64,000 nt of DNA from a virus (taxonomy: Duplodnaviria > Caudoviricetes), in IMG/VR virus record IMGVR_UViG_3300031760_000010, positions 1 to 64,000 of that record. One strand, 5' to 3'. Every line of letters starts with the position of its first letter. Positions within the stretch are counted from its first letter, which is position 1. Under the pieces are notes generated by a model, which searched no databases, was not told where the DNA came from, and was given only the letters and a program-made list of their open reading frames with translations. Position numbers and translations under genes: made by a program. Positions 3,248 through 58,175 of this stretch are shown here, piece by piece.

Positions 3248-6200
3248 TTATTGAATCGTTGCACATAGCAACTGTACACGTACTGCTACTTTTGCTGCCG
3301 CGCCATCACAATACCCCCACACACGTATTGCAGAATTACCGTTTACAGGATTAAAATACATTAATCGAATACGGCTAGATCCTTGACCGTCTGAAGAAGC
3401 ATTAGCAAACTGTACTGTTGATACACCAAGTAGCCGATAACCCGATGACATGGATGGCGTAAACTCAGTATAAAATGTTGAGTTGGCATTTACAGAGATA
3501 TTATCTTTTTCCATATAGATGTTTTGAATCGGAAGCTTACCATTAATATTGCCTTGTACTGTAAGGGTGGTATCATTATACTCCCAACCCGTTCTATCCA
3601 AAGCAGTGCCGCGCACATATACTTGATTAGCTTCTAATGAAATATAATCATCTGAGCCAATTGTCGCAGACGAGTATCCATACATATTAATATCTTCAGA
3701 CGCATAAACATTTAATCCATAACTGCCTTCTACGTTTTCAATGTATGTAATCCCGCCAACATTATTATTTCCGACTTCAAAAATAAGTTCTGTGGCTGAA
3801 TAGTCACTTTCATCACTATGTAAAATCAAAGTAGAACCGTTCACATAACACTCTCCGTTTTTCGTTACGTAGAATTTATTCGTGATAGATAATCCTTCAT
3901 CACCAAAATATGATACTCCACTAGTCTTAAAACTATTCGAATTACCTTTATAAATTGAAGTATCCGTAACTTTCCAAGGCCCTATAGTACTGTTAGCTCC
4001 TGCCTTCAAGACGCCTGAAATATTCGCGCTATTGGCATAAACAACACCAGTATTACTGACTCCAAAATTGGCTCCTATGGCAAACCGTAAGTCACTATGA
4101 GAAGTACCATTAATCGATCTAGTAAAATTACCATTGGACAGGGTAATATAACCAGCAGTTGTTCCGCCCTTGGATCCTGAATATATACCGTACGAGTCTA
4201 TAGTAAAGCCATTCGTTTTAGTTCCAAGATATCCACTGTTAGCCGTAATGGCACCGACAACCGACAATGTGCTACCATTATATGTCAATAAATCAGGACC
4301 GAAATTAAACGTCCCATTCGCATTGATCTTTACCTGATTACTCGTTCCCGCTGACAAATTACCACTACTGTCAATATAAATACCACTCGCACCAGCAGCG
4401 GATGTCTTAGACCCTGTAGACAGTGATGTGGCATTCACCGCACCAGTAAACGTAGCATTCCCGGAAGAATCTACTTTTACTTTTGCTGTTTTACCTTGTA
4501 GAATCTCAAAGATGTTACTGGCATTTGGATTGATTTTGACCGTTGCCGTACCGTTGGTAACATTAAGCCCATCACCATCCATTATCATACGATTGTCCGT
4601 TGCACCATCACCAGTGTATATCTTTAGATTTTGACCAAGAAATAATTTGCCAACAACAGTATTCGCAATTACACCATAATCGTCCACAAATTCTTTCGTT
4701 TCAGGGTCATAATAAGTAAATGCACCAATACCCGTACTGATCGTATCCCAATTATCCTGGGTAAGATACAAACCGTTGTTAATAATTTTTAGCTGATTAT
4801 CTGTATAGGAATCACTAATTTCATCATAACCTCTGGCAACAATACCGCTAGAGTCATATACAATATCCTGAGACATTGGGTTGTTAACATAACGAACAGC
4901 GGTTGCATCCATACCAGCATTCATCCAATCCTGTACTCGTTTGGCAGCTGGTGCCTGTTGTCTGACTTGCTGTTGGAAAGCTGAATAAGATCCCGCCATT
5001 GACCCAGCTTGTTTTAGCACAGACTGAATGTCCGTAGCGCCTGACCATATTTCCTCAACTGTAGAAAACTCTACATTGATTGTCTGTAATTCTGCGAAGT
5101 TGATGGAATAAGAGAGTAACCGTAAATTATATAGCTTCTCATCCACCAACATATTAATCCAATTACCAACTTCAAAGTCATCCTTAATTGGAGCAAAAGC
5201 TGGTAATTGCAGTAAGTTGTTTAAACTGCCAGATACGTTATACTGCAAATGAGATAACTTATATAGCTCTTTCTGCGCGGCATCCAATAAATCACCCGCT
5301 CTACGCATCAGTTCATTGTTATCCAGATCATCTGAGATATAGTTGTCATTCTTATAGTTATCTTCTCTGCGATAATTACAGAATACCTTATATAGATCGT
5401 CTCCTAAGAATAGCTCAAAATCCAATATAACTTTGGTTACACTTCTGTAATAATTGATATCATCCAAAACATCCTGCAGATCAGCCAACTGTTTCTCTCT
5501 AAGGGCAATTTCTTCTTCGATTAACTTCAACCGATTATTATATAACTTATAATATAATTCATTGATACGATTACTGTTTTCAATAATAATCCCCATACTA
5601 TCCTGATAAGATGGATAAACAATTTTGCTTAAAATATCCAGGCTATAATAATGCAGTCTTTCTTTAAAATCATCTGCCTCGTTGTCTTTAACAGACCCGT
5701 CAGGGTTTAAAGATGCTTGGTCAATATCTGTTAAATCGGTTAATGGCTTAACTTGGGCTTTGTTTCGTTGCGTAAGTTTTTCAATCTTTTGCTCAACGTA
5801 TTTTGCCATGTCATAGTTAACTGTAATGGTTAACGTATCTGTATCTTTGGTGTTTATAGATTCATATTTTGTTCCCTTGTATTCAATTGTCTGGACTCGC
5901 AATTTACCTCTCCACGTACCAGATCCAGTATCCGTAGAAGCTGGTGTCCAGGTTGCCGCCATCGCTGGAGAAATAGTAACATCATATAAAGACGTATTGA
6001 TTATGCACTTTGCACTTTGCAGTATTCCATTTTCTACTGTTGCTTGCGTAGAAGATTTAGGGTTAATCACTGCAATAGGAGATAAGTTACCAACTGTCAG
6101 TAACGCCATAGTATCATCCAGTGAAGTATTGTCTGTCACTACATCCGGGGTCATTGAATATTCATAAAAAGCCTTTAAGTCCAATGTATTATAATACAAT

Positions 6201-25630: not shown

Positions 25631-25659
25631 ATTATAACAAATATAAATTAATTTGTCAA
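25631..25659 (-). promoter_or_regulatory. Consensus sigmaA promoter for the HNH gene
   Basis: TTGACA (25659-25654), 17-nt spacer, TATAAT (25636-25631). Confidence 0.85.
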
Positions 25660-39298: not shown

Positions 39299-39372
39299 AG
39301 TCTTATGTCAGATTCGAACTGACCCCGCCAGTTTGGAAGACTGGTATGCTATACCGCTAACACTAATAAGAC
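39299..39372 (-). tRNA. tRNA-Gly(TCC)
   Basis: Cloverleaf: acceptor GTCTTAT/ATAAGAC, anticodon arm CCAGT-CTTCCAA-ACTGG, T arm GTCAG-TTCGAAT-CTGAC, discriminator T. CCA not encoded. Confidence 0.88.
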
Positions 39373-41150: not shown

Positions 41151-41223
41151 AGCTCCCGCCCGGACTTGAACCGGGAGCCTGTTGATTACAAATCAACCGC
41201 TCTACCAATTGAGCCACAAGAGC
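41151..41223 (-). tRNA. tRNA-Thr(TGT)
   Basis: Acceptor GCTCTTG/CGGGAGC, D arm GCTCAATTGGTAGAGC, anticodon arm GTTGA-TTTGTAA-TCAAC, T arm CCCGG-TTCAAGT-CCGGG. Confidence 0.93.
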
Positions 41224-41772: not shown

Positions 41773-44700
41773 TTATCCAGCCGCCGATTTTTTACTTATA
41801 AAACATGCTAAAAAGCACTTTGAGTTAACTTCGTAGAGGGTCTTCAATAATAAAGCTTTGTTATAGTTAGTTGATGAAACCATCTTTGCGATGTTACTTT
41901 TTACCCCTGGAGTAATCACAAAAGCTCTATTAATTAATTTAGAAACTAAGCCAACATAATTTTTAGATAAATAAATTTGGCGGATATCTTCTATAAGCTT
42001 TTCAAAATCTTCCGCCAACATCATAAATAAATCTTCATCCGTTGGATCATCAGCCACTCCATGAGATAACAGTTTCAAAGAATATTTTTCAATCATCTTT
42101 TCAACTTTTCTTGACACCCTATGATGTTCCGTAAATTCATGTTTAATAAAAAAGTCCTGAATTGGAAGAGTGGAAGTAGTTGGATTATACGACTTTGGCT
42201 TTAATCTATATACATAATTCATTGGACATTTTAGTTGCTTATTCATTTTCTTCTTATCAAATTGCGGTCTTATCAATCCCCAAAAAGAAGGGTACCCACG
42301 TTGGTCAATTAGCATTGATTGCTTAATCAATTTTATTTCTTCCATTATATCAATGTCATATTTTCTTTTAGCATTGTCAATAGCACATTGAGCAAGAACA
42401 CTTAAAATACAAACATTATCATATAATTTCTGATCATCATAATTGTATGTATAAGACAATGCTATCTGTGCCAAGTTGCTGGATTCACCTATTGCCCGCT
42501 GGCTGGCCGCAAGGTTATTATCAATTCGCGCAAAATCTGCTAAAGTATTATTATAATGGTTAGCATCTTTGGGTATATTATTTACTATAGTAGGATATTC
42601 CCGATAAAATCTCCGGGCACTATCCACTACAGACGGTTGATTAGTAACGTATAGCGAATCTGAATCTTGATCTGCCTATTTGTTTCGTCCCAGGCTCTTT
42701 ATCCTGGGCGGCTCCGGGTTTCCCCGGAGTGTCGGACTATATCTTCACCTACGACTTTACGTTTAGGTGTTCGGCGCTCGTGGATGAATTATCGCTTTAC
42801 CCGCTCGTCATCTAGTCTCTAAGCTTTCCCATCTTTATTCGGTATTGGATGGGCTTAGTAATTGATTGGCTTATGTGTGTGATAATAATTAATTAGCCAT
42901 TTCGAAATAATAATTGTGATATAATTTCTGCTTTTTTGCCGCTCTTGATATGCAAGAAATCATACTTGATATTTTAATAGATAGTTTGCATTGCTCTTTA
43001 ATCCATGCGCAAGCATCCATTATCGTATCTGTGGTTAGTATATAATTTTTGTTTTGATCATATATATGAACTCGTTTGGCATTGGGATTTTCTTTTCCGG
43101 TTTGATGAGATAGGCGGTTTTTTGTTTTCGCTAACCACTGTTGATACTTTTCATCCGACATTCGTTCTTTTGGGGAAACCCCAAACATCGCGTTATTAGC
43201 ACCCGATGAAGTAATGCTGTATCGCTGTTTTAATTCGGCTACTTCTTCAGGCGTCTTTAACTCCCAATAATTGATTCCATAGGCAGGATTCTTTTCCCCT
43301 TTCATGGCCTCAGAATGTTGAATACACCATTCTTTGCTATGCACCATCCCCACACTACCATCTCCTCCAAAAGTATGGTTGGTTAAATGCCCTGGTTCAT
43401 TCTGACGATTATTATAACCAATAATATCAATCCCATAGCCTTTATTAAAAACATAATCCATAACAGTTTCATGTTCTAGTCGGTATGCTTCTTCTTCAGA
43501 TAAATTATCATAAAGAATATTTACACGCATTCCCACTTTATTAACAATTCTATCATGATGTTCGTTCCGTCTAGTATTGTAAGCTCGTTTCTTTCGTCCT
43601 TTTCCCACATAAAAACAAGTATCATTATCTAATCTAATATGCTCATATACACAATATCCTTGATCTTCTATATATTACACCTCCTTTTTAATTTAACTAT
43701 TATCACACACACTTAGCGTTCCAATTTTCACCGAATATTTTTTACGCATATTTCTATACGCTGGCCCAGTATGTTAAGCCGTTATTCCGATCCTGTGCAT
43801 CCGTTCCAATCATATTTAATGCTATAATCAATTTCCCAAATGTGAAATACCTCTTAAACCGTTCATCATAATGATTATGTAAATAATCCAGATTATTTCT
43901 ACTATTGAAAGGGTTCCTGAATCCAGCAAGATATTCACCATCTTCAAATCGTTCCGTATAACATTGAATTGCACCGTCTTCAATCATCAACGTATCATCT
44001 TTATGATAATCATCCCCGGCTGAAGCCAACAACATAGCATACGGAGATCCAACAATTACAAGATTGTCTGCTTGTTGAATAAGTTTACCTGTCTTTACAT
44101 TTTTTACATACGTACGAATTATTTCTTTTTTTCTTTCTCTAAAATAATCACAACGTATGAATTCCGGGTTATGCTCAACTAATGCGACAAGTACTTCATA
44201 ATCATTTGCAAAATTAGTATTTCTTCTCAAGTAATCTACAAATACAGCATCATTCCGCTTTAATTGCTGTATATAATCCAGAGTCTCTTGGCATATATTC
44301 TCCATTAGGTCTATATCTAATGCATTAACCATCTGATAGCTCATACGCTGTACCTCACCCAATTTACTAGGATGAGCTGTCTTCACTATACCAAACTGGC
44401 AGCCATTTTTTCGTACCCATTCAGACCAATATTCAAAATCAACATGAAACTTAAGCCACTTAAGTGCGTTTTCAGTGGTAATCAATTTTACATTCCTTGC
44501 TAATATTTTATGACCCCACATGTCTTCAACTTCAGCAGTTTCATATTGATCACCAAAATAATCTTGATAGAAGAGTTGTATATTGCTTCGAAAGGCTGCC
44601 ATCTTACAGAAATGATGTCGTAAGAGAATATAACCCTCCCCCCATTCCGGGAAAATGCTCTCATCAATTAATGCCTGTCCATCAAATAATGTATTCTTTA

Positions 44701-50221: not shown

Positions 50222-50819
50222 GTTTAAAAAAAGCCAAGTGAGAATTGGTAAAAATTGAGGTGGAGGGTATAGCAAAAATTTATGTCACAATTTTATTGTA
50301 GATGGAATAATGGCTGATGGGGGTTGATATAATCGTTGATAAAATAATAATGGGTGGTTGGGCTGATAAAAGATTGATGGGATTATAGCATGGATGAGGA
50401 GATGTGTCAAGGATGGTGGGGGATGGAGTGGGAGATGGAGAGATGGGAAGATAAGTGTTTATACTTAACTGTTTTATGATTTTAATATTTTTCGATTTAA
50501 TGGCCGATGAATAATTTTTAGAGCTGTATTAACAAGGTTACTATGAAAAAGAAAAATAAATTAAAGAAATATGAGATAAATATGAGATTGAAAAAATGAG
50601 TCAGTGTAAAAATGGACCCGCTATTGGGAAAATTGAAAAAATTTGTCGAATTTTGGTTCAAACACCCCCTGATTTCCTCAAAAAAACTGTAATTTTTCGC
50701 AAAAAAGTTTGGTTTTATGGTAGTATTGAATCGGAGGAACTATGTAAACCGCTTTTCGAAAACACTTTTCAAAAACACTTTATTAAAAGCGCCGATTGTA
50801 TCGGCAAAAGGAGGCTTAT

Positions 50820-51940: not shown

Positions 51941-51971
51941 ATACCGCCGACTTCGGCGGTATTTTTTTTTT
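51941..51971 (+). terminator. Intrinsic terminator after the sigma-like gene
   Basis: ATACCGCCGA-CT-TCGGCGGTAT hairpin followed by T10. Confidence 0.88.
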
Positions 51972-52190
51972 GAAAAAAATTGGTTTTTTCTAGTCTTGAT
52001 TGATAGTTATAGTGTAAGGATTGATTGAGAATGACATAGAAATATGTCATTAGAAAAAACCAAAGATAATTCTATGTTTTTTCAAACATGGAATTATTTT
52101 TCAAATTTTTTTGAAAAAAATTGGTTTTTTCTAGTCTTGATTGATAGTTATAGTGTAAGGATTGATTGAGAATGACATAGAAATATGTCA
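51965..52190 (+). repeat. Perfect 85-bp direct repeat (51965-52049 and 52106-52190)
   Basis: Identical copies 141 nt apart, each ending in a TGACATA-GAAA-TATGTCA hairpin. Confidence 0.95.
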
Positions 52191-52617
52191 ATCATTCATT
52201 CACTTGCAAGTGCGGTTAGTTAGAGTCGCAACCGCTTTTCCGAATGACTTAAAATGGACTTTGTGAATGAACGGTTGACATTGGGAAGTGTCAAATCCTC
52301 ATCAATCTGCGCACACCGCATGGTTAGAGCGAGTCTCGGCGGACAGGGGCGAAGCTCAGACGAATCTAGCCAGACTTTGGATGACCGTCTTAAAATGTCA
52401 CCCCGCTTGTTACCGCAGACGTTAAGGCGGTAACCGCCAAACCCGGCAGGCTGTAGAAATGTTCCGGGTTGCTTTTCGGTGGATCGTTGACCCTGAGAGG
52501 AGTCTCTCAGGAACCGATGAACGTCTTCTTAGTCTTGCACCCTTGCAAATTCTAGGGCATAGTTCTAGGACTTGCAAGGATGCAAGACTGCATCCTAAAA
52601 ATAATATTTTTAGGAGG
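52158..52617 (+). ncRNA. Candidate large structured RNA / 5' leader (~460 nt)
   Basis: No credible ORF. At least ten stems and a 7-bp pseudoknot visible by eye (see findings). Confidence 0.6.
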
Positions 52618-52624
52618 TCATATT

Positions 52625-53584
52625 ATGACGTACAACAACATGAAGAAGGCTGAGCTTGTGAACCTGTGCAAAGAGCGGAATCTTCCCAGTAATGGCAAGG
52701 TTGCCACGCTGATTGAGCGCTTGGAGACTGCAGACCGTAAGGCTGCTGAAGCTGCCAACGCCGGGATTGGCGTTGGAGCGAACTCCAAGAAGTCCTATGC
52801 CGTGAACGCGATGCGTCCGGCAATCGTGGCGGCAAATGAGGCGAATAATCGCCGCGCCATCACTAAGGACGACGCCGCAGAAGCGGGCGTAGACGAGGAA
52901 CGCTGGCAGGAATGGAAAAAGTGGTGTGCAGATCTCCACGAGATCGTTTCCACCTACGTGGAGGCAAAACGCTCCAGATCTGCATCTTCTGCATCTACTG
53001 AGATGCGCCAGACGTACCGCCAGAAGATCTACCCGGCATGGAGAACCATGCTGAAGGTAGGGGAGGAAAACATTTTTTCGCCGAAGATGTACCTGCGAGA
53101 GGATGACGTAGAGTCCCTGATCGGATTCTGCGAAGACTTCGTGGGGACTGCAATGGGAACTGAGCAGGCCAACGCAACCGAAGGGAAGTTCCGCAAGTTG
53201 GTGGAGACCCTGATCGGTTGCCGCATTAAGGGATGTGAGACGCTTCCTGCAAAGGATCGCGATCTGATCATCCTGTACGAGAGCGCTCTGCGCTCCAAAG
53301 AGAAGGCTGAGAAGGCACTGAACGGAGACGGAAAGAATATCGTGGGTATCATCCGCGAACTGCAGGCTGCTGAAGTGCAGACTGAGAAATTCGTAACGTC
53401 TCTGCGGGAACTGGGACTGACCGAAGAGCGCATCGCCGAGGTGACGGCGCCGTTCTACGTGAAGGTAAAGGATCTGAAGGAAGCTAAGAAGCGTTCGGAA
53501 AAGGCTCTGAAGAAGGCCGAAGAGACGATCGCCGCGAAGAAAAATGCGGCGCAGGAGATCTACGATCGCATCAAGAGCCGCTAA
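52625..53584 (+). CDS. SAP/HeH-domain protein with C-terminal coiled coil
   Basis: 'YNNMKKAELVNLCKERNLPSNGKVATLIERLE' matches the SAP domain consensus. ATG 52625 after AGGAGG. Confidence 0.75.
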   Translation: MTYNNMKKAELVNLCKERNLPSNGKVATLIERLETADRKAAEAANAGIGVGANSKKSYAVNAMRPAIVAANEANNRRAITKDDAAEAGVDEERWQEWKKWCADLHEIVSTYVEAKRSRSASSASTEMRQTYRQKIYPAWRTMLKVGEENIFSPKMYLREDDVESLIGFCEDFVGTAMGTEQANATEGKFRKLVETLIGCRIKGCETLPAKDRDLIILYESALRSKEKAEKALNGDGKNIVGIIRELQAAEVQTEKFVTSLRELGLTEERIAEVTAPFYVKVKDLKEAKKRSEKALKKAEETIAAKKNAAQEIYDRIKSR

Positions 53585-53593
53585 ATTAAAACC

Positions 53594-53617
53594 GGGGAGG
53601 TGAAATACCTCCCCTTT
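53594..53617 (+). terminator. Hairpin / weak terminator after the SAP gene
   Basis: GGGGAGGT-GAAAT-ACCTCCCC followed by TTTAT. Confidence 0.6.
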
Positions 53618-53619
53618 AT

Positions 53620-53672
53620 GGACTCATGTGCAAGCCTCCCCGTGGCGAGTCTGGATTCGAACCGATTGCACA
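53620..53672 (+). ncRNA. Minimal HDV-like self-cleaving ribozyme #1
   Basis: P1 GGACUC/GAGUCU with G1-U wobble, P2 UGUGCAA/UUGCACA, P3 GCC/GGC, L3 UCCCCGU, P1.1 GG-CC, vestigial P4, J4/2 CCGA. Confidence 0.8.
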
Positions 53673-53719
53673 AGAAGGGAACCTTATGGTATAATGCTCT
53701 GAGGTAAAGGAGGGTTATT

Positions 53720-53872
53720 ATGCACACAGTATCTGTTTTCTATGACGGAGAGTGGTTGACGTATGAAAACTGCAGCCCGCTCACCACACTTTGCATGATT
53801 AACGACGCTTTAGCGCAGGGGCTGCGTGTAAAGCGTGACGGCAAAGAGATCGTAGAATCTTCTTACACTTGA
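53720..53872 (+). CDS. Small hypothetical protein (50 aa) between the two ribozymes
   Basis: Not in the ORF track. MHTVSVFYDGEWLTYENC...ESSYT* with RBS AAGGAGG and an upstream TGGTATAAT extended -10. Confidence 0.7.
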   Translation: MHTVSVFYDGEWLTYENCSPLTTLCMINDALAQGLRVKRDGKEIVESSYT

Positions 53873-53884
53873 AACGACCAATGT

Positions 53885-53950
53885 GTCCCCAAAAGGGAAG
53901 CGTCCACGTCGCGGGGGATGGGCAACGGGAATTATCCCGGCTGATTTCCT
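53885..53950 (+). ncRNA. HDV-like self-cleaving ribozyme #2
   Basis: P1 GUCCCC/GGGGAU with G1-U, P2 AGGGAA/UUUCCU, P3 GCG/CGC, L3 UCCACGU, P1.1 GG, J1.1/4 GCAA, P4 CGGGA/UCCCG, J4/2 GCUGA (putative catalytic C53941). Confidence 0.85.
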
Positions 53951-53958
53951 AGAAGGAG

Positions 53959-54387
53959 GTGTGTCATATAGGCGAGAAAGGAAAAATACTATCCCTTTCC
54001 AATGAGGATCTTTTAGAGACGCTCCAGAAGAACAACCCGGAGTTACTCAAAAGTGCTTTATCCAAAATTGAGGAGGGCCTCCGTGAAGAATCGGAGGGGA
54101 CTTGTTTCGTGCCCGCCAAGGCAAAGGAATTTGAAAACCTATGCGTAGAGCTTAGGGAAATCGTTTCCGCCTTGGAGGGCGAAGTCATCGCCATTACTCC
54201 TATTGGGAGAAAATGTTTACGCCATTATATAGACGTATGCATCCCGGATGAGGCAGTAATGGATGCCGAAACGTTCCAGCGTTTTTTGGAATGTCTCAGG
54301 CATTTCAATTATTGCCATTGGAGTATTGAGGATGGCGATGACTTAATTACTCTGGGATTGTCCTTTAGTGGGATTTACCAGAAGTAG
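53959..54387 (+). CDS. Hypothetical protein
   Basis: About 140 aa. RBS position suggests an ATA start at 53968. Confidence 0.6.
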   Translation: MCHIGEKGKILSLSNEDLLETLQKNNPELLKSALSKIEEGLREESEGTCFVPAKAKEFENLCVELREIVSALEGEVIAITPIGRKCLRHYIDVCIPDEAVMDAETFQRFLECLRHFNYCHWSIEDGDDLITLGLSFSGIYQK

Positions 54388-54491
54388 GGTACGGAAATCA
54401 TTTTATTCCAGACTAGAACACAGGAGCTACGGAAACGAATTCCGACTCCTGTGTTTTAGTATGCAATAAAATGCAAAATAAGGAGGAACCA

Positions 54492-54734
54492 ATGGAAACT
54501 GAAACCAAGAAACTCACCGCAACCCGGCAAAAAGCTATTGCGACCGCAATAGCTTTATGCTATCCTGTTTCTGTGGTCTCCAAATTAACGGAGGCAACAA
54601 CGGAAACGGAAATCAATCGCATTATGACGACAGCCCGCCATGACGCGATCAAGGCAGACGAATTCCGGACACGTTCCCGGATCGTCTGCAACTTCAAGCC
54701 CCATTCTCGTGGGGTTGTGGTATTTGCAAGATAA
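54492..54734 (+). CDS. Hypothetical protein
   Basis: 80 aa, RBS AAGGAGG. Confidence 0.6.
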   Translation: METETKKLTATRQKAIATAIALCYPVSVVSKLTEATTETEINRIMTTARHDAIKADEFRTRSRIVCNFKPHSRGVVVFAR

Positions 54735-54772
54735 CGGAAACTAATGCACAAATTAAAATTAGGAGGGAAACT

Positions 54773-55381
54773 ATGTGCTACAATGGAAATTTTAACGTTT
54801 TATTCAACTCTGAGCAGTTCTGGGCAGAGTCCGAAATCTTCTGGGATCACGCAGATGACGGAGACCTTCTGGAGTGGCTTGCGCCGCGCCGAGAGAAGGA
54901 AAACGAGATGGACGCAATGGAAACACCTGCAAAGGTGATGTTCCGTGGTAACCGAAACAGCCAGTACCGCTATCGCGTGATGAAGCGCGAGAAGGCGAAA
55001 TACGGCAAGACAAAAGCAGATCGCCGTCAGGGACGGAAGGATTATCGCGACCTGTGCCGGGAGATGCACGAGTTCCGTGTATACAATGCCGGGGACAAAA
55101 AATCCCGGAAGGCAAAGGAGCAGTTCGCCTCCGCCCTGGGTGACGAATGGGACGTCACCCGGGGACAGGCAAACAACATTGCCGCAACGGAAGTTGTGGC
55201 CGAAGATTTTGTAGAGTCCCGGAAGGCAGAGCTGAAGGCAGTACAGGAAGAGATCCGTAAGGTAAACCTGAAGTGGTCCGATCTGCTGGGCCAGATGATG
55301 GCTCTGGAAGACGAACTCGCTGAACTCGCTCCCGGTTGGAAAGAGTGGGAAAGCTACAAAGCAAAGGAGGAACGGAGATGA
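54773..55381 (+). CDS. Hypothetical protein
   Basis: 202 aa, RBS AGGAGG, coiled-coil C-terminus. Confidence 0.65.
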   Translation: MCYNGNFNVLFNSEQFWAESEIFWDHADDGDLLEWLAPRREKENEMDAMETPAKVMFRGNRNSQYRYRVMKREKAKYGKTKADRRQGRKDYRDLCREMHEFRVYNAGDKKSRKAKEQFASALGDEWDVTRGQANNIAATEVVAEDFVESRKAELKAVQEEIRKVNLKWSDLLGQMMALEDELAELAPGWKEWESYKAKEERR

Positions 55382-55797
55382 AAAAACTCATCATCAGACT
55401 GGCTCTGATCGCCAGCCTTGCGTCTGCAACGGAAGCTACCGGGATCAGTCCCTATAGCTTCTACAAGAAGCTGGTCAAGAAACAGAAAATCGGTGTGGTA
55501 AGGGAATACTATACCGATAAATTGACAGGAGATATTCTTCGTAATCGCGGTGATGACATCATCGTGGAACGGATCATCGGCAAGGTAATTGACAACAAGG
55601 GCAATGGAAAAGTCCTTGGTGTTGAGGATTATGACTATATTTCCTACAACGGAGTCAATGGAATCTGCAAAGGAGATATAGTCATGACGGTGTGTATCTA
55701 CGCACCGAACAGTGACGGCGAAGATGATATAATTGAGCGGTTTGATTATATCATCGACCGAAAGGGAAAGAAGGTGAAAAACGCGAAGAATAAGTAA
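55378..55797 (+). CDS. Hypothetical secreted or membrane-anchored protein
   Basis: Signal-peptide-like N-terminus MKKLIIRLALIASLASA. Confidence 0.6.
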   Translation: MKKLIIRLALIASLASATEATGISPYSFYKKLVKKQKIGVVREYYTDKLTGDILRNRGDDIIVERIIGKVIDNKGNGKVLGVEDYDYISYNGVNGICKGDIVMTVCIYAPNSDGEDDIIERFDYIIDRKGKKVKNAKNK

Positions 55798-55812
55798 TAC
55801 ATAAATTAAAAC

Positions 55813-55906
55813 AAATCCTGCTCAGTACTGGTGTACCGCTAGTGAAACGAATGACGGAATAGCTTGCGTCTGGGTTCAATTCTCAGATGAGTGGTTCTGC
55901 GGATTT
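55813..55906 (+). ncRNA. tRNA-like element
   Basis: T-arm (T)CTGGG-TTCAATT-CTCAG(A), acceptor-like stem CTGCTCA/TGAGTGG, outer stem AAATCC/GGATTT. No canonical anticodon arm. Confidence 0.5.
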
Positions 55907-55932
55907 ATCGCAAAGCAAAGGAGGAATTATCC

Positions 55933-56142
55933 ATGAGCAGCAAGGAAAAGGAACTGAAAGAACTGGAGTGCTTCGAACAGTACTTCGACCCAAATCGCCA
56001 ACCTTTGGTTGACGAGTATTTCTGCAAGGTAACCCGAAGGGAGACGATCCTGCGGAAGATCAAGAACGCGATTCTTGATTTCATCTGCAATCCGTTTGTG
56101 CTGATGATGGCCGCTTTTGTGGGATGCATCATCTACGGCTAA
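55933..56142 (+). CDS. Small membrane protein
   Basis: 69 aa with a C-terminal hydrophobic helix, RBS AAGGAGG. Confidence 0.6.
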   Translation: MSSKEKELKELECFEQYFDPNRQPLVDEYFCKVTRRETILRKIKNAILDFICNPFVLMMAAFVGCIIYG

Positions 56143-56210
56143 TTACAACTTAATATTGGTAATATACAAAATAATAAACACATAGCCAACAAGGCAAAGG
56201 AGGAACAATT

Positions 56211-58175
56211 ATGTTCAACGTAGGCGACATTGTAACCGGTATTGATTCTAAGCAGTATTGCATTACGAACGATGCAGCGATCTGCAGAGTTATGGCGGTA
56301 GGGATCGCTGGAAATCCAGACAAAATCAAGGTAAAAGTTCTGGAACGAACCGATGGAGAGTATGAGGAGAGTGTCGGGGACATTTATCCGGTAGACGCCC
56401 GGCACTTCAAGTTGGTTGAGGGGTATCAGGTAGTAAGCGAGATCCCGGAACCTGAATATGATCTGACGCCAGTGTCGGATGAGATCATTGACCGAATCGC
56501 AAGTGAAATGGCAGTATTTTTTGATAAGTACGGTCATAGGCACTCCATGGAGGGTATCAGGGAAATCCTTCGGGTGTATCTGGAAAACAACATGCCGCTG
56601 ATCGGCATCCTGCGTCAGCATCCGAATTGGGATGAAGAAAAGCTGGCAATCGTGTTCTCCAAGGGATACGTCCGCAGCGTCCAGTATCAGCAGGTAGTGG
56701 AGTTTACTGACTGGTTTCTTGCGAAGAAAGTGGAGCAGATCAACGCAAACGAAGTCAAATACTGCGGTAAGTCTTACCGTTGGTGGATGAGCCAGTATCG
56801 CCAGTTAGACCGAGCTGTAGATTTCATAAGCAATCTTGAGAGTGGCTTTTCTGCTTCTATTTCGTTCAACGGAATGGAAATCGATCCCAGACAAGAAAAA
56901 AGATTTGCCAGAAAAGCAATCGAAAGTCTGGATAATTTCCCGACTGTTACGGGAAAATATGTAAACTATACTTACTTTGCGGATTACGACAAGGTAAAAT
57001 CTTTCCGCCAGGTACTTCTGAATTATTTCGGTCAGGAAGATCCGAGTACCATTTCTCCGGTAGCCACAAAGGAACTGACGGATAAAATTAACGAGATTTA
57101 TCCCGGTATGGCTGTAGAGGGACAGAAGATCTCCCGGATCGTAGGGAAAATCGGCAAGCTCCTTGGGTTCGATCAGATTAAGGAAAAGTGGAACGGTCGT
57201 GACTACGGTTGGAACAGACAGTTCGCCATGTTCGCAGATGCTATTAATCCACTGGAATATACAAAGTATACTCTCATTTCCTTAAATCCTATGGATTTCC
57301 TGACCGCCAGTTTTGGTCACGGTTGGGCGTCCTGCCAGACTCCTGATTACCAGAACTTAAGAAATTGTTCACATACTTACGAAGGCATGTACATGAGCGG
57401 TACTCTTAGCTACATGCTGGATGGGGTATCCATGGTATATTACACGGTAGATGCCGATTACAAGGGAGATGAGTTCTGGAAACAGGATAAATCACAGCGG
57501 TGCATGTTCCACTACGGAAACAACGTACTGGTTCAGGGCCGGGTTTATCCTGATGGCAGAGATGGTGGAGACGGAAGTCTTGCTTCTCAGTTCAGGGCGG
57601 TCATGCAGGAAGTAATTACTACCTGTACAGGGAAACCGAATCTGTGGACTCTAAAGAAGGGAAGTGGTTCTATCAGAGAATTTACAGAATCTCATGGTAC
57701 CCATTACAGAGATTACCAGCAGTATAATGATTGCACGATCTCTCTGCTCAAGGGATGTGAGCACAAGATAATCCATATTGGTCACAATCCGATCTGCCCG
57801 GAGTGTGGAAGGGAACACGAAATCTGTGGTCAGTTAACCTGTGATCGCTGTGGTCGTACAAAATACTGTAACCATTGCGGATGCGAGGTTGATCCTGATT
57901 TTGCAATCGAAATTGACGGCAACGTATTCTGCGACTCTGAATGTGCTGAAGCGTCTGGTTATGTGAATACTACCGATGACGGATGGCATGAAAGGGAAAG
58001 TTGCTTGTATGATGACCTGGAAGATGAATGGTACTGGGATTACGAAAGCAGTTACGTGGTAACGGAAGATGGTCATAGTTATATTGACGAAGACAACGCA
58101 AGGGAGGCTGGTTATGCCCAGAACGCAGATGGCGAATGGGTTGATGCTGCCAGTCTGAGCGAGGAGGCGGAATAA
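56211..58175 (+). CDS. Large hypothetical protein with Cys-rich C-terminal zinc-finger repeats
   Basis: 654 aa. Central 'SLNPMDFLTASFGHGWASC' and 'QGRVYP' motifs, multiple CxxC, acidic tail. Confidence 0.7.
   Translation: MFNVGDIVTGIDSKQYCITNDAAICRVMAVGIAGNPDKIKVKVLERTDGEYEESVGDIYPVDARHFKLVEGYQVVSEIPEPEYDLTPVSDEIIDRIASEMAVFFDKYGHRHSMEGIREILRVYLENNMPLIGILRQHPNWDEEKLAIVFSKGYVRSVQYQQVVEFTDWFLAKKVEQINANEVKYCGKSYRWWMSQYRQLDRAVDFISNLESGFSASISFNGMEIDPRQEKRFARKAIESLDNFPTVTGKYVNYTYFADYDKVKSFRQVLLNYFGQEDPSTISPVATKELTDKINEIYPGMAVEGQKISRIVGKIGKLLGFDQIKEKWNGRDYGWNRQFAMFADAINPLEYTKYTLISLNPMDFLTASFGHGWASCQTPDYQNLRNCSHTYEGMYMSGTLSYMLDGVSMVYYTVDADYKGDEFWKQDKSQRCMFHYGNNVLVQGRVYPDGRDGGDGSLASQFRAVMQEVITTCTGKPNLWTLKKGSGSIREFTESHGTHYRDYQQYNDCTISLLKGCEHKIIHIGHNPICPECGREHEICGQLTCDRCGRTKYCNHCGCEVDPDFAIEIDGNVFCDSECAEASGYVNTTDDGWHERESCLYDDLEDEWYWDYESSYVVTEDGHSYIDEDNAREAGYAQNADGEWVDAASLSEEAE

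What the first reader, a model, noticed from the sequence alone, without database searches (positions are those of the whole stretch)
53620..53950. Two HDV-like ribozymes bracket a 50-aa ORF in the phage early operon, with no tRNA attached
Seen in sequence: two complete nested double-pseudoknot folds (53620-53672 and 53885-53950). Each has a G1-U wobble in P1, a 3-bp P3, an L3 of UCC(C/A)CGU, a GG for P1.1 and a C-N-R-A J4/2. Their stems differ in sequence, so they are not a recent duplication. Established: HDV-like ribozymes cleave 5' of G1, and phage theta ribozymes usually follow tRNAs. Inference: cleavage at 53619/20 and 53884/85 would release a monocistronic unit for the 50-aa ORF and give the next gene a 5'-OH, pseudoknot-capped end. 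Ribozyme #2 ends 3 nt before the next RBS. The 3' strand of ribozyme #1 overlaps a possible -35 of a promoter with a TGGTATAAT extended -10.
Basis: partly seen in the sequence, partly recalled or inferred. Interest (0 to 1): 0.88.

Follow-up and report, generated by a model that had tools for sequence, protein, structure and literature searches.

The report
Two HDV-like ribozymes between phage genes
Two small self-cutting RNAs of the hepatitis-delta type sit in neighbouring gene gaps of an uncultured 122-kb phage and most likely cut its messages into separate pieces, an arrangement already known in phages, so this is a solid but fairly ordinary example.

Summary
Both folds are real and far beyond chance. 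Ribozyme 1 (53620-53672) fits the published layout of minimal "theta" HDV-like ribozymes segment by segment. A covariance model built only from other phages' ribozymes scores it 51.3 bits (E 7e-10 over the window). Ribozyme 2 (53885-53950) has a P4 stem and is of the Faecalibacterium prausnitzii type. It scores 36.2 bits against Rfam RF02682 (cut-off 44), and it also has a 6-bp P2 pseudoknot that the Rfam model does not score.

Both subfamilies show strong compensatory changes in their helices. No orthologue of this exact locus with sequence variation was found, and no RNA data could be obtained, so cleavage is inferred.

Lacking a tRNA is not unusual: 526 of 1281 published theta occurrences are not tRNA-linked.

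Ribozyme 1 lies 5 nt after a strong hairpin. I found this hairpin-then-ribozyme module repeatedly in other phages. Ribozyme 2 ends 2-3 nt before a Shine-Dalgarno site.

A strong promoter-like site overlaps the 3' end of ribozyme 1, so the 50-aa ORF probably has its own transcript start. The two ribozymes then mark two separate junctions rather than release a cassette.

Flanking of single genes by ribozymes was published for prophage hammerheads in 2011. This scan has noted several denser HDV-like cases on other DNA. Verdict: new member of a known kind, moderate interest.

The parts
52580..53584 (+). Upstream gene: 334-aa protein with an N-terminal SAP domain; stop codon at 53582-84
   Evidence: ORF list; Pfam SAP PF02037, E 2.5e-8
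53594..53614 (+). GC-rich hairpin (9 bp, 3-nt loop, about -16 kcal/mol) followed by a 5-nt tail, 53615-19. It would be the 3' end structure of the upstream cleavage product, and it may act as a weak terminator.
   Evidence: Fold of the 40-45 nt upstream of the cut site. The tail has too few U for the terminator scan on the + strand.
53620..53672 (+). Ribozyme 1: minimal (theta-type) HDV-like ribozyme. Predicted cut between 53619 and 53620; catalytic C53662.
   Evidence: Descriptor hit. Same segment layout as the published theta list. Model R1 gives 51.3 bits, E 6.9e-10. The minimum-energy fold contains P2 and P3.
53667..53695 (+). Sigma-70-type promoter-like site. The -35 overlaps the 3' strand of P2 of rz1, followed by a 17-nt spacer and a TG-extended perfect -10. 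The predicted start is near 53702.
   Evidence: 10 of 12 matches plus TG; the only such site on the + strand of the window; 0.02 expected in 52-58 kb.
53720..53872 (+). 50-aa ORF with a strong Shine-Dalgarno site (53709-15). It is an orphan.
   Evidence: ORF list. It is called as a gene on an identical ENA contig. The only match among 5.8 billion proteins is itself.
53885..53950 (+). Ribozyme 2: P4-bearing HDV-like ribozyme of the F. prausnitzii type. Predicted cut between 53884 and 53885; catalytic C53941.
   Evidence: Rfam RF02682 gives 36.2 bits against a cut-off of 44, with E 7.6e-5 in 1 kb and 1.1e-3 in 14 kb. R1 gives 22.7 bits, E 0.0024. The P2 pseudoknot is not scored by either model. 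The subfamily covaries.
53952..54387 (+). Shine-Dalgarno site (53952-59) and the downstream gene. The frame is open from 53959. The start codon is uncertain: in-frame ATA at 53968, or GVG-type start at 54109 as called on the ENA contig.

Best explanation
Both elements are functional HDV-like self-cleaving ribozymes transcribed in sense with the + strand arm of an uncultured phage. Each marks one gene junction.

Rz1:
- It follows the SAP-domain gene and sits 5 nt after a stable hairpin.
- Transcripts that read through the hairpin would be cut at 53619/20.
- The upstream mRNA would then end in a hairpin plus a 2',3'-cyclic phosphate. That is the same 3' end a weak terminator there would give.
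- The downstream RNA would be uncoupled from it.

Promoter: a host-type promoter overlapping the 3' end of rz1 probably starts the transcript of the 50-aa ORF.

Rz2:
- It cuts that transcript 12 nt after the ORF's stop codon.
- The next gene's message would then begin with a 5'-OH buried in the compact double pseudoknot, 2-3 nt before its Shine-Dalgarno site. This works like a natural insulator or 5' cap.
- The short ORF message would be left without a 3' hairpin.

Net effect: adjacent cistrons get separate ends, and probably separate lifetimes, without host RNases.

Shown: the folds, their family membership, their position and orientation, and the recurrence of the hairpin-ribozyme-ribosome-site module in other phages. 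Inferred: cleavage itself, promoter use, and the effects on stability and translation.
For: Fold and family:
- Descriptor: 2 hits against 0.067 expected.
- R1, built from 21 ribozymes of other phages, scores rz1 51.3 bits and rz2 22.7 bits; the next best hit is 10.6 bits.
- Rfam RF02682 gives 36.2 bits for rz2.
- Rz1 has the same segment layout as published isolated theta ribozymes.

Covariation in the subfamilies:
- Minimal set A1: 97% of cells paired, 12 pairs with changes on both sides, 0 of 500 shuffles as high.
- F. prausnitzii-type set A4, which includes rz2: 99% paired, 10 such pairs, 0 of 500.
- The search pattern for the A4 set specified only unpaired motifs, yet 21 of the 25 matched loci had complementary P1, P2 and P3.

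Context:
- Both ribozymes are intergenic and in sense.
- 17 of 39 non-tRNA ribozymes from other phages have a hairpin of -10 kcal/mol or stronger that ends within 6 nt of the cut. The rate is 7.6% at random positions.
- For ribozymes within 120 nt of a stop codon it is 12 of 17, against 12% at matched after-stop positions.
- Relatives of this phage (peptidase 38-47% identical) carry one orthologous module: stop, hairpin, 2-3 nt, ribozyme, 4-6 nt, Shine-Dalgarno, small ORF. It has compensatory changes in P2, P3 and P4, and the hairpin differs in sequence.
- Several ribozymes on one strand flank small genes in L091, L087, L019 and L103.

Promoter.

Precedent: multiple hammerheads flank single prophage genes and cleave in vitro and in vivo (PMC3088659).
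Against:
- No orthologue of this locus with sequence variation was found. The only other copy is 100% identical, so covariation is at subfamily level only.
- Rz2 is below the Rfam cut-off. The seventh position of its P1 is an A x G mismatch.
- Rz2 has a nested alternative fold (-26.5 kcal/mol) that beats the nested part of the native fold (-17.5). In it the two 5' strands of P1 and P2 pair with each other, and so do the two 3' strands.
- Rz2 lacks the upstream hairpin seen in most relatives.
- A promoter next to a ribozyme is not a general feature: 1 of 42 downstream and 1 of 42 upstream.
- From my own knowledge: in Firmicutes a 5'-OH end can attract RNase J1, as for the glmS product, so stabilisation of the downstream product is uncertain.
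- The 50-aa ORF is an orphan.
Confidence: 0.62

Rival explanations
1. One or both folds are inactive look-alikes or decayed ribozymes with no present function.
For: Rz2 is below the Rfam cut-off, has a mismatch in P1 and has a strong competing fold. Decayed copies do exist in relatives: L196/L088 lost the hairpin and the 5' strand of P1 through a 30-nt deletion, and L214 lost the 5' strands of P2 and P3.
Against: In both ribozymes every core feature is intact: the catalytic C, the L3 motif, P1.1, G1-U, and U at -1. Rz1 scores 51 bits. Only 0.067 chance hits are expected per window. Both are intergenic and in sense.
Confidence: 0.1
2. Rz2 is a regulated switch rather than a constitutive cutter. 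The alternative fold, or a ligand, decides whether it cleaves and whether the adjacent ribosome-binding site is free. This would parallel the F. prausnitzii ribozyme upstream of glmM, which is modulated by glucosamine 6-phosphate.
For: There is a competing fold of -26.5 kcal/mol. The 3' strand of P2 is pyrimidine-rich and lies 2-3 nt from the Shine-Dalgarno site. The modulation of the F. prausnitzii ribozyme is cited in PMC6765202.
Against: There is no conserved extra domain or aptamer. Co-transcriptional order favours the native fold. Subfamily members have quite different P1 and P2 sequences, so the alternative pairing is not conserved.
Confidence: 0.1
3. The double cut releases the 265-nt segment 53620-53884 with 5'-OH and 2',3'-cyclic phosphate ends. 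It then acts as a discrete RNA, either as a stable small message or, after ligation by a host RtcB-type ligase, as a circular RNA.
For: Two same-strand ribozymes would give exactly the ends that RtcB joins (established chemistry). The bracketing geometry is shown.
Against: The internal promoter means most ORF transcripts would start with a triphosphate downstream of rz1. No complementarity brings the two ends together. Perreault et al. looked for circular or spliced products of tandem hammerheads and found none.
Confidence: 0.04
4. The ribozymes are mainly boundaries of exchangeable gene modules, or selfish passengers. Their position reflects recombination history rather than a role in expression.
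For: The same ribozyme types sit next to unrelated genes in different phages. The neighbouring genes here are orphans. The 52-58 kb stretch has 46-49% G+C against about 35% elsewhere.
Against: Orientation is strictly in sense. Spacing to the hairpin (1-5 nt) and to ribosome-binding sites is tight. The helices are maintained by compensatory changes. All of this points to selection at the RNA level.
Confidence: 0.08

Closest known systems
Theta ribozymes, non-tRNA-associated ('isolated') class (Kienbeck et al. 2024, Nat Commun, PMC10879173)
   Same: Rz1 has the same segment layout as the published list: 6-bp P1 starting with G, 1-nt J1/2, 7-bp P2, 3-bp P3, L3 of U-CC-NCGU, GG for P1.1, 7-nt L4 and a C-N-R-A J4/2. 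It lies in a tailed-phage genome, in a non-coding gap, in sense with its neighbours. Published entries share its P1, its P2 or its L4 individually.
   Different: I did not find the exact sequence in the stored part of the supplement, which was cut when stored. The paper does not mention upstream hairpins, terminators or tandem arrangements and leaves the function of isolated members open.
HDV-like ribozyme of Faecalibacterium prausnitzii (Rfam RF02682; Webb et al. 2009)
   Same: Rz2 shares the L3 motif, the conserved run that leads from P1.1 into P4, the closing pairs of P4 and the J4/2 motif. It aligns over the full length of the model.
   Different: It scores 36.2 bits, below the 44-bit cut-off. 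It is in a phage, not upstream of glmM. It has a G1-U pair at the base of P1 where most subfamily members have a Watson-Crick pair, and a mismatch at the inner end of P1.
Tandem hammerhead ribozymes flanking single genes in prophages (Perreault et al. 2011, PMC3088659)
   Same: Several self-cleaving ribozymes in one orientation flank single genes or short gene blocks of phage origin. The proposed role is to process long transcripts into single-gene messages. One published case flanks an anti-restriction gene, and the arm here carries RadC and DUF5688 genes of the kind found next to such genes.
   Different: The ribozyme class differs: an HDV-like ribozyme stays on the downstream product and needs nothing upstream of the cut. 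Here the bracketed gene also appears to have its own promoter.
Synthetic ribozyme insulators such as RiboJ (Lou et al. 2012; cited from my own knowledge, not checked here)
   Same: A self-cleaving ribozyme placed just before a ribosome-binding site gives the message a fixed 5' end that does not depend on what lies upstream. This is the geometry of rz2.
   Different: RiboJ is engineered and hammerhead-based, with an added hairpin. Nothing about expression has been tested for rz2.

Membership tests
HDV-like self-cleaving ribozymes | Nested double pseudoknot with P1, P1.1, P2 and P3 (plus optional P4) in the canonical order, and the cut site directly 5' of P1 | tested here: met
   Both sites pass a descriptor that requires all of these helices. 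Coordinates were checked by hand.
HDV-like self-cleaving ribozymes | Catalytic cytosine at the first position of J4/2 (C-N-R-A), and L3 cytosines that pair with GG to form P1.1 | tested here: met
   C53662 and C53941 are in place. The L3 cytosines and the GG pair are present in both. Descriptor variants with A or G at the catalytic position gave no hit in the window.
HDV-like self-cleaving ribozymes | Helices maintained by compensatory changes among relatives | tested here: met
   Met at subfamily level: A1, A3, and A4, which includes rz2. Orthologues of this exact locus with variation could not be found.
HDV-like self-cleaving ribozymes | Mg-dependent self-cleavage giving 5'-OH and 2',3'-cyclic phosphate ends | not testable with these tools
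   This needs a bench assay or end-specific RNA-seq.
Theta ribozymes (Kienbeck 2024) | Minimal layout: 6-7 bp P1, short J1/2, 7-bp P2, 3-bp P3, fixed L3 pattern, and a short L4 of about 5-8 nt in place of P4 | tested here: met
   Rz1 meets every segment as read from Supplementary Data 2 and 4. The descriptor file itself is an image, so I inferred it from the lists. Rz2 does not meet it: its P4 region is 19 nt and its P2 is 6 bp.
Theta ribozymes (Kienbeck 2024) | Cut site within 5 nt of a tRNA 3' end (gives the family its name, but is not required) | tested here: not met
   No tRNA is near either site. The two tRNAs of the window, at 39299-39372 and 41151-41223 on the - strand, carry no ribozyme. 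In the paper 42% of occurrences are likewise isolated.
Rfam RF02682 HDV-F-prausnitzii | Score at or above the curated gathering threshold of 44 bits | tested here: not met
   Rz2 scores 36.2 bits and aligns over the full length. Rz1 gives only a 12.5-bit partial match.
Ribozyme-flanked genes of phages and prophages (Perreault 2011) | Two or more self-cleaving ribozymes on the coding strand flanking one gene or a short block of genes | tested here: met
   Rz1 and rz2 flank one 50-aa ORF on the + strand. The class is HDV-like rather than hammerhead.

The most novel reading that the evidence does not exclude
Hairpin, then HDV-like ribozyme, then ribosome-binding site is a general device of tailed phages that works without host RNases. 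It would write both message ends at once: a hairpin-protected 3' end with a cyclic phosphate for the upstream gene, and a pseudoknot-capped 5'-OH end for the downstream gene. This would replace or back up intrinsic terminators. In this phage the DNA of one such ribozyme would also serve as the -35 of a promoter, so one 53-bp element would both end one transcript and start the next.
Probability: 0.35. Interest if true: 0.55.

Novelty: new member of a known kind. Interest (0 to 1): 0.36.

Why it matters
The function of the hundreds of phage HDV-like ribozymes that are not next to tRNAs is an open question left by the theta-ribozyme paper.

This locus adds a clean case with two subfamilies side by side. 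The comparison made here also gives a testable generalisation: in many phages the cut site lies 1-5 nt after a stable hairpin, and the ribozyme is often followed at once by a ribosome-binding site.

If confirmed, this would mean that ribozymes define message ends and uncouple neighbouring genes. That is useful for annotating phage transcription units and as a source of natural insulator parts. It does not change the known picture of what these ribozymes are.

Tried and rejected
Searches for orthologues of this locus:
- Searches of viral contigs with three neighbouring proteins found nothing.
- Protein searches for the 142-aa and 50-aa products found only the phage itself.
- The one other contig is 100% identical.
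- No match among deposited phage genomes.
- An exact-motif search for rz1 relatives in viral contigs and in metagenomes found nothing.

Searches that gave mostly noise:
- The first pattern for F. prausnitzii-type ribozymes in viral contigs gave mostly chance matches. Only L016 was real.

Ideas I rejected:
- I thought the gene after the second ribozyme of L019 might be a homologue of the 142-aa gene here, which would make the two ribozymes positional orthologues. BLASTP does not support this (E 0.43).
- A promoter beside the ribozyme is not a general feature.
- No other self-cleaving ribozyme class is present at 50-64 kb, even at a loose threshold.
- Nothing supports a tRNA-processing role at this locus.

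Full report
**What the window is.** The window is the first 64 kb of a 122,559-base IMG/VR virus record, linear and about 80% complete.
- Genes run on the - strand up to about 50.1 kb and on the + strand from about 50.6 kb onwards.
- The finding lies in the + arm. Its recognisable genes are a SAP-domain protein, an M28-like peptidase, DUF5688 and a RadC-like protein; the rest are orphans.
- An early or host-takeover role for this arm is plausible but not shown.

**Observation.** Both folds are in the sequence exactly as described. All helix coordinates are listed in the observation check.
- I wrote a descriptor that requires G at +1, P1 of 6-7 bp, P2 of at least 5 bp, a 3-bp P3 with a 7-8 nt loop, GG after P1, and C-N-R-A before the 3' strand of P2.
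- It found exactly these two sites in 128 kb of both strands. Block-wise dinucleotide shuffles gave 0.067 hits each. Variants with A or G at the catalytic position gave none, and T gave one.
- A much looser scan of the whole genome found no further site with a proper L3.
- I wrote the descriptor after reading the finding, so independent models carry more weight.

**Independent models.**
- Rfam matches rz2 to RF02682 (the HDV ribozyme of F. prausnitzii) over the full model. The score is 36.2 bits, below the 44-bit cut-off, with E 7.6e-5 in 1 kb and 1.1e-3 in 14 kb. That model does not score P2, and rz2 has a 6-bp P2 in the right place.
- Rfam has nothing for rz1 beyond a 12.5-bit partial match.
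- I therefore collected minimal HDV-like ribozymes from other phages, using a pattern that covers only P3, L3 and the GG. Of the loci held, 36 contained complete ribozymes.
- A covariance model (R1) built from 21 of these, without the window, scored rz1 at 51.3 bits (E 6.9e-10 over the window, both strands). It scored rz2 at 22.7 bits (E 0.0024). The next best hit was 10.6 bits.

**Family membership.**
- The supplement of Kienbeck et al. 2024 lists theta ribozymes split into descriptor segments. Rz1 has the same layout in every segment. Individual published entries share its P1, its P2 or its L4.
- Rz1 is therefore a theta-type minimal ribozyme of the 'isolated' class.
- That class is large: 526 of 1281 occurrences, of which 493 are non-coding and 96% are sense to the nearest gene. 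Its function was left open. The absence of a tRNA is therefore not unusual.
- Rz2 fails the theta layout because it has a real P4. It belongs with the F. prausnitzii type.
- A metagenome scan with a pattern that specified only unpaired motifs returned 25 loci. Of these, 21 had complementary P1, P2 and P3, giving 11 distinct sequences.

**Covariation.**
- Minimal set (A1): 97% of cells pair, 12 pairs change on both sides, and no shuffle or slid register comes close.
- F. prausnitzii-type set including rz2 (A4): 99% of cells pair and 10 pairs change on both sides.
- These sets were filtered for pairing, so the percentage paired is partly by construction. The telling fact is that patterns blind to the helices retrieved sequences whose helices are complementary yet different.
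- No orthologue of this exact locus with variation exists in the collections I could search. The only other copy is identical.

**Context of rz1.**
- A 9-bp GC-rich hairpin (53594-53614, about -16 kcal/mol) ends 5 nt before the cut.
- This arrangement recurs. Among 39 non-redundant, non-tRNA ribozymes from other phages, 17 have a hairpin of -10 kcal/mol or stronger ending within 6 nt of the cut, against 7.6% of random positions.
- Among those within 120 nt of a stop codon the figure is 12 of 17, against 12% of matched after-stop positions.
- The gap between hairpin and cut is 1-5 nt in 17 of 19 strong hairpins.
- Most of these hairpins lack a U-tract, so they are not terminators.

**Relatives of this phage.**
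- I found relatives through the peptidase gene (38-47% identity). Seven loci carry intact copies (five distinct sequences) of one orthologous module: stop codon, hairpin, 2-3 nt, ribozyme, 4-6 nt, Shine-Dalgarno site, small membrane-type ORF. An eighth locus, L206, carries an unrelated theta-type ribozyme that also sits directly behind a hairpin.
- The module shows compensatory changes in P2, P3 and P4. Two different hairpin sequences occupy the same place.
- Two copies have decayed.
- The F. prausnitzii-type relatives mostly have a hairpin in the same place.
- Rz2 is an exception: nothing structured lies upstream of its cut.

**Promoter.**
- The -35 at 53667-72 overlaps the 3' strand of P2. 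A TG-extended perfect -10 follows after 17 nt.
- It is the only site of that strength on the + strand of the window. Two perfect consensus promoters on the - strand suggest that the phage uses the host's main sigma factor.
- A promoter beside a ribozyme is not general: 1 of 42 on either side.
- If this promoter fires, the transcript of the 50-aa ORF starts near 53702, downstream of rz1.

**Mechanism proposed.**
- Rz1 finishes the upstream transcription unit. Read-through RNA is cut just after the hairpin, which gives the same 3' end a weak terminator would give and uncouples what follows.
- Rz2 cuts 12 nt after the small ORF. The next gene's message then begins with a base-paired 5'-OH end, 2-3 nt before its ribosome-binding site. 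The small ORF message is left without 3' protection.
- The same logic was proposed for tandem hammerheads that flank single prophage genes and do cleave (PMC3088659). Reviews repeat it for twister ribozymes (PMC6765202).
- Clusters of two to four HDV-like ribozymes on one strand occur in L019, L087, L091 and L103. In L091 a 104-aa ORF is bracketed exactly.

**Caveats.**
- Cleavage is inferred.
- Rz2 has a mismatch at the inner end of P1.
- Rz2 also has a nested alternative fold that, by nearest-neighbour energies, beats the nested part of the native fold. Co-transcriptional order should favour the native fold, but only an assay can tell.
- From my own knowledge: in Firmicutes a 5'-OH end can attract RNase J1, so the effect on the downstream message could go either way.
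- The start codon of the downstream gene is uncertain.
- The 50-aa ORF has no relatives. Its good ribosome-binding site is the only support for it being a gene.

**Earlier notes of this scan.** Other agents have reported the same kind of arrangement on other DNA, with 5, 8 and 15 ribozymes between early phage genes, some 'each behind a hairpin'. These notes are unchecked and are not evidence. My hairpin statistics were computed independently, before I read them.

**Verdict.** The arrangement is a small instance of a known pattern. I rate it a new member of a known kind, of moderate interest.

Noticed in passing
window 51965-52049 and 52106-52190: A perfect 85-bp direct repeat lies just upstream of the SAP-domain gene. 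It also appears in the identical ENA contig.
   Followed up: no
window 50382-50410 and 25631-25659, - strand: There are two perfect consensus sigma-70 promoters (12 of 12 matches with a TG extension). One sits at the strand-switch region and faces the - strand arm.
   Followed up: no
window 42712-42963, - strand: A group I intron matches Rfam RF00028 at 50.8 bits. It lies between the ORFs at 41773-42627 and 42889-43608, which are probably two exons of one gene.
   Followed up: no
window 52000-58000: G+C is 46-49% here, against 32-43% in the rest of the window. This suggests a segment of different origin or under different constraint.
   Followed up: no
L196 4157-4195 (the same contig as L088, about 5000-5040 on the - strand), and L214 2157-2199: These are naturally decayed copies of the ribozyme found in relatives. 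In L196 a 30-nt deletion between short direct repeats removed the upstream hairpin and the 5' strand of P1. In L214 the 5' strands of P2 and P3 are missing.
   Followed up: partly
L029, L030, L037, L047, L048, L062, L068, L106, L136, L137 (ribozyme coordinates): One group of minimal ribozymes has no upstream hairpin but shares a conserved roughly 12-nt motif just before the cut. Several are followed within about 10 nt by a sequence that looks like the 5' part of a tRNA, so these ribozymes may sit upstream of tRNAs rather than downstream.
   Followed up: no
L019 921-949 and 977-1085: In a relative phage a near-consensus promoter lies directly upstream of a hairpin plus a P4-type ribozyme. Every transcript from it would shed a short leader and begin with the ribozyme.
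   Followed up: partly
L014 8286-8351, - strand: A type II hammerhead ribozyme scores 72.6 bits in an unrelated viral contig that was fetched by chance.
   Followed up: no
L218-L242 (segment table): In the F. prausnitzii-type subfamily the first nucleotide of P1 is G, A or C, with a matching partner. The G at +1 is therefore not fixed in these relatives.
   Followed up: partly
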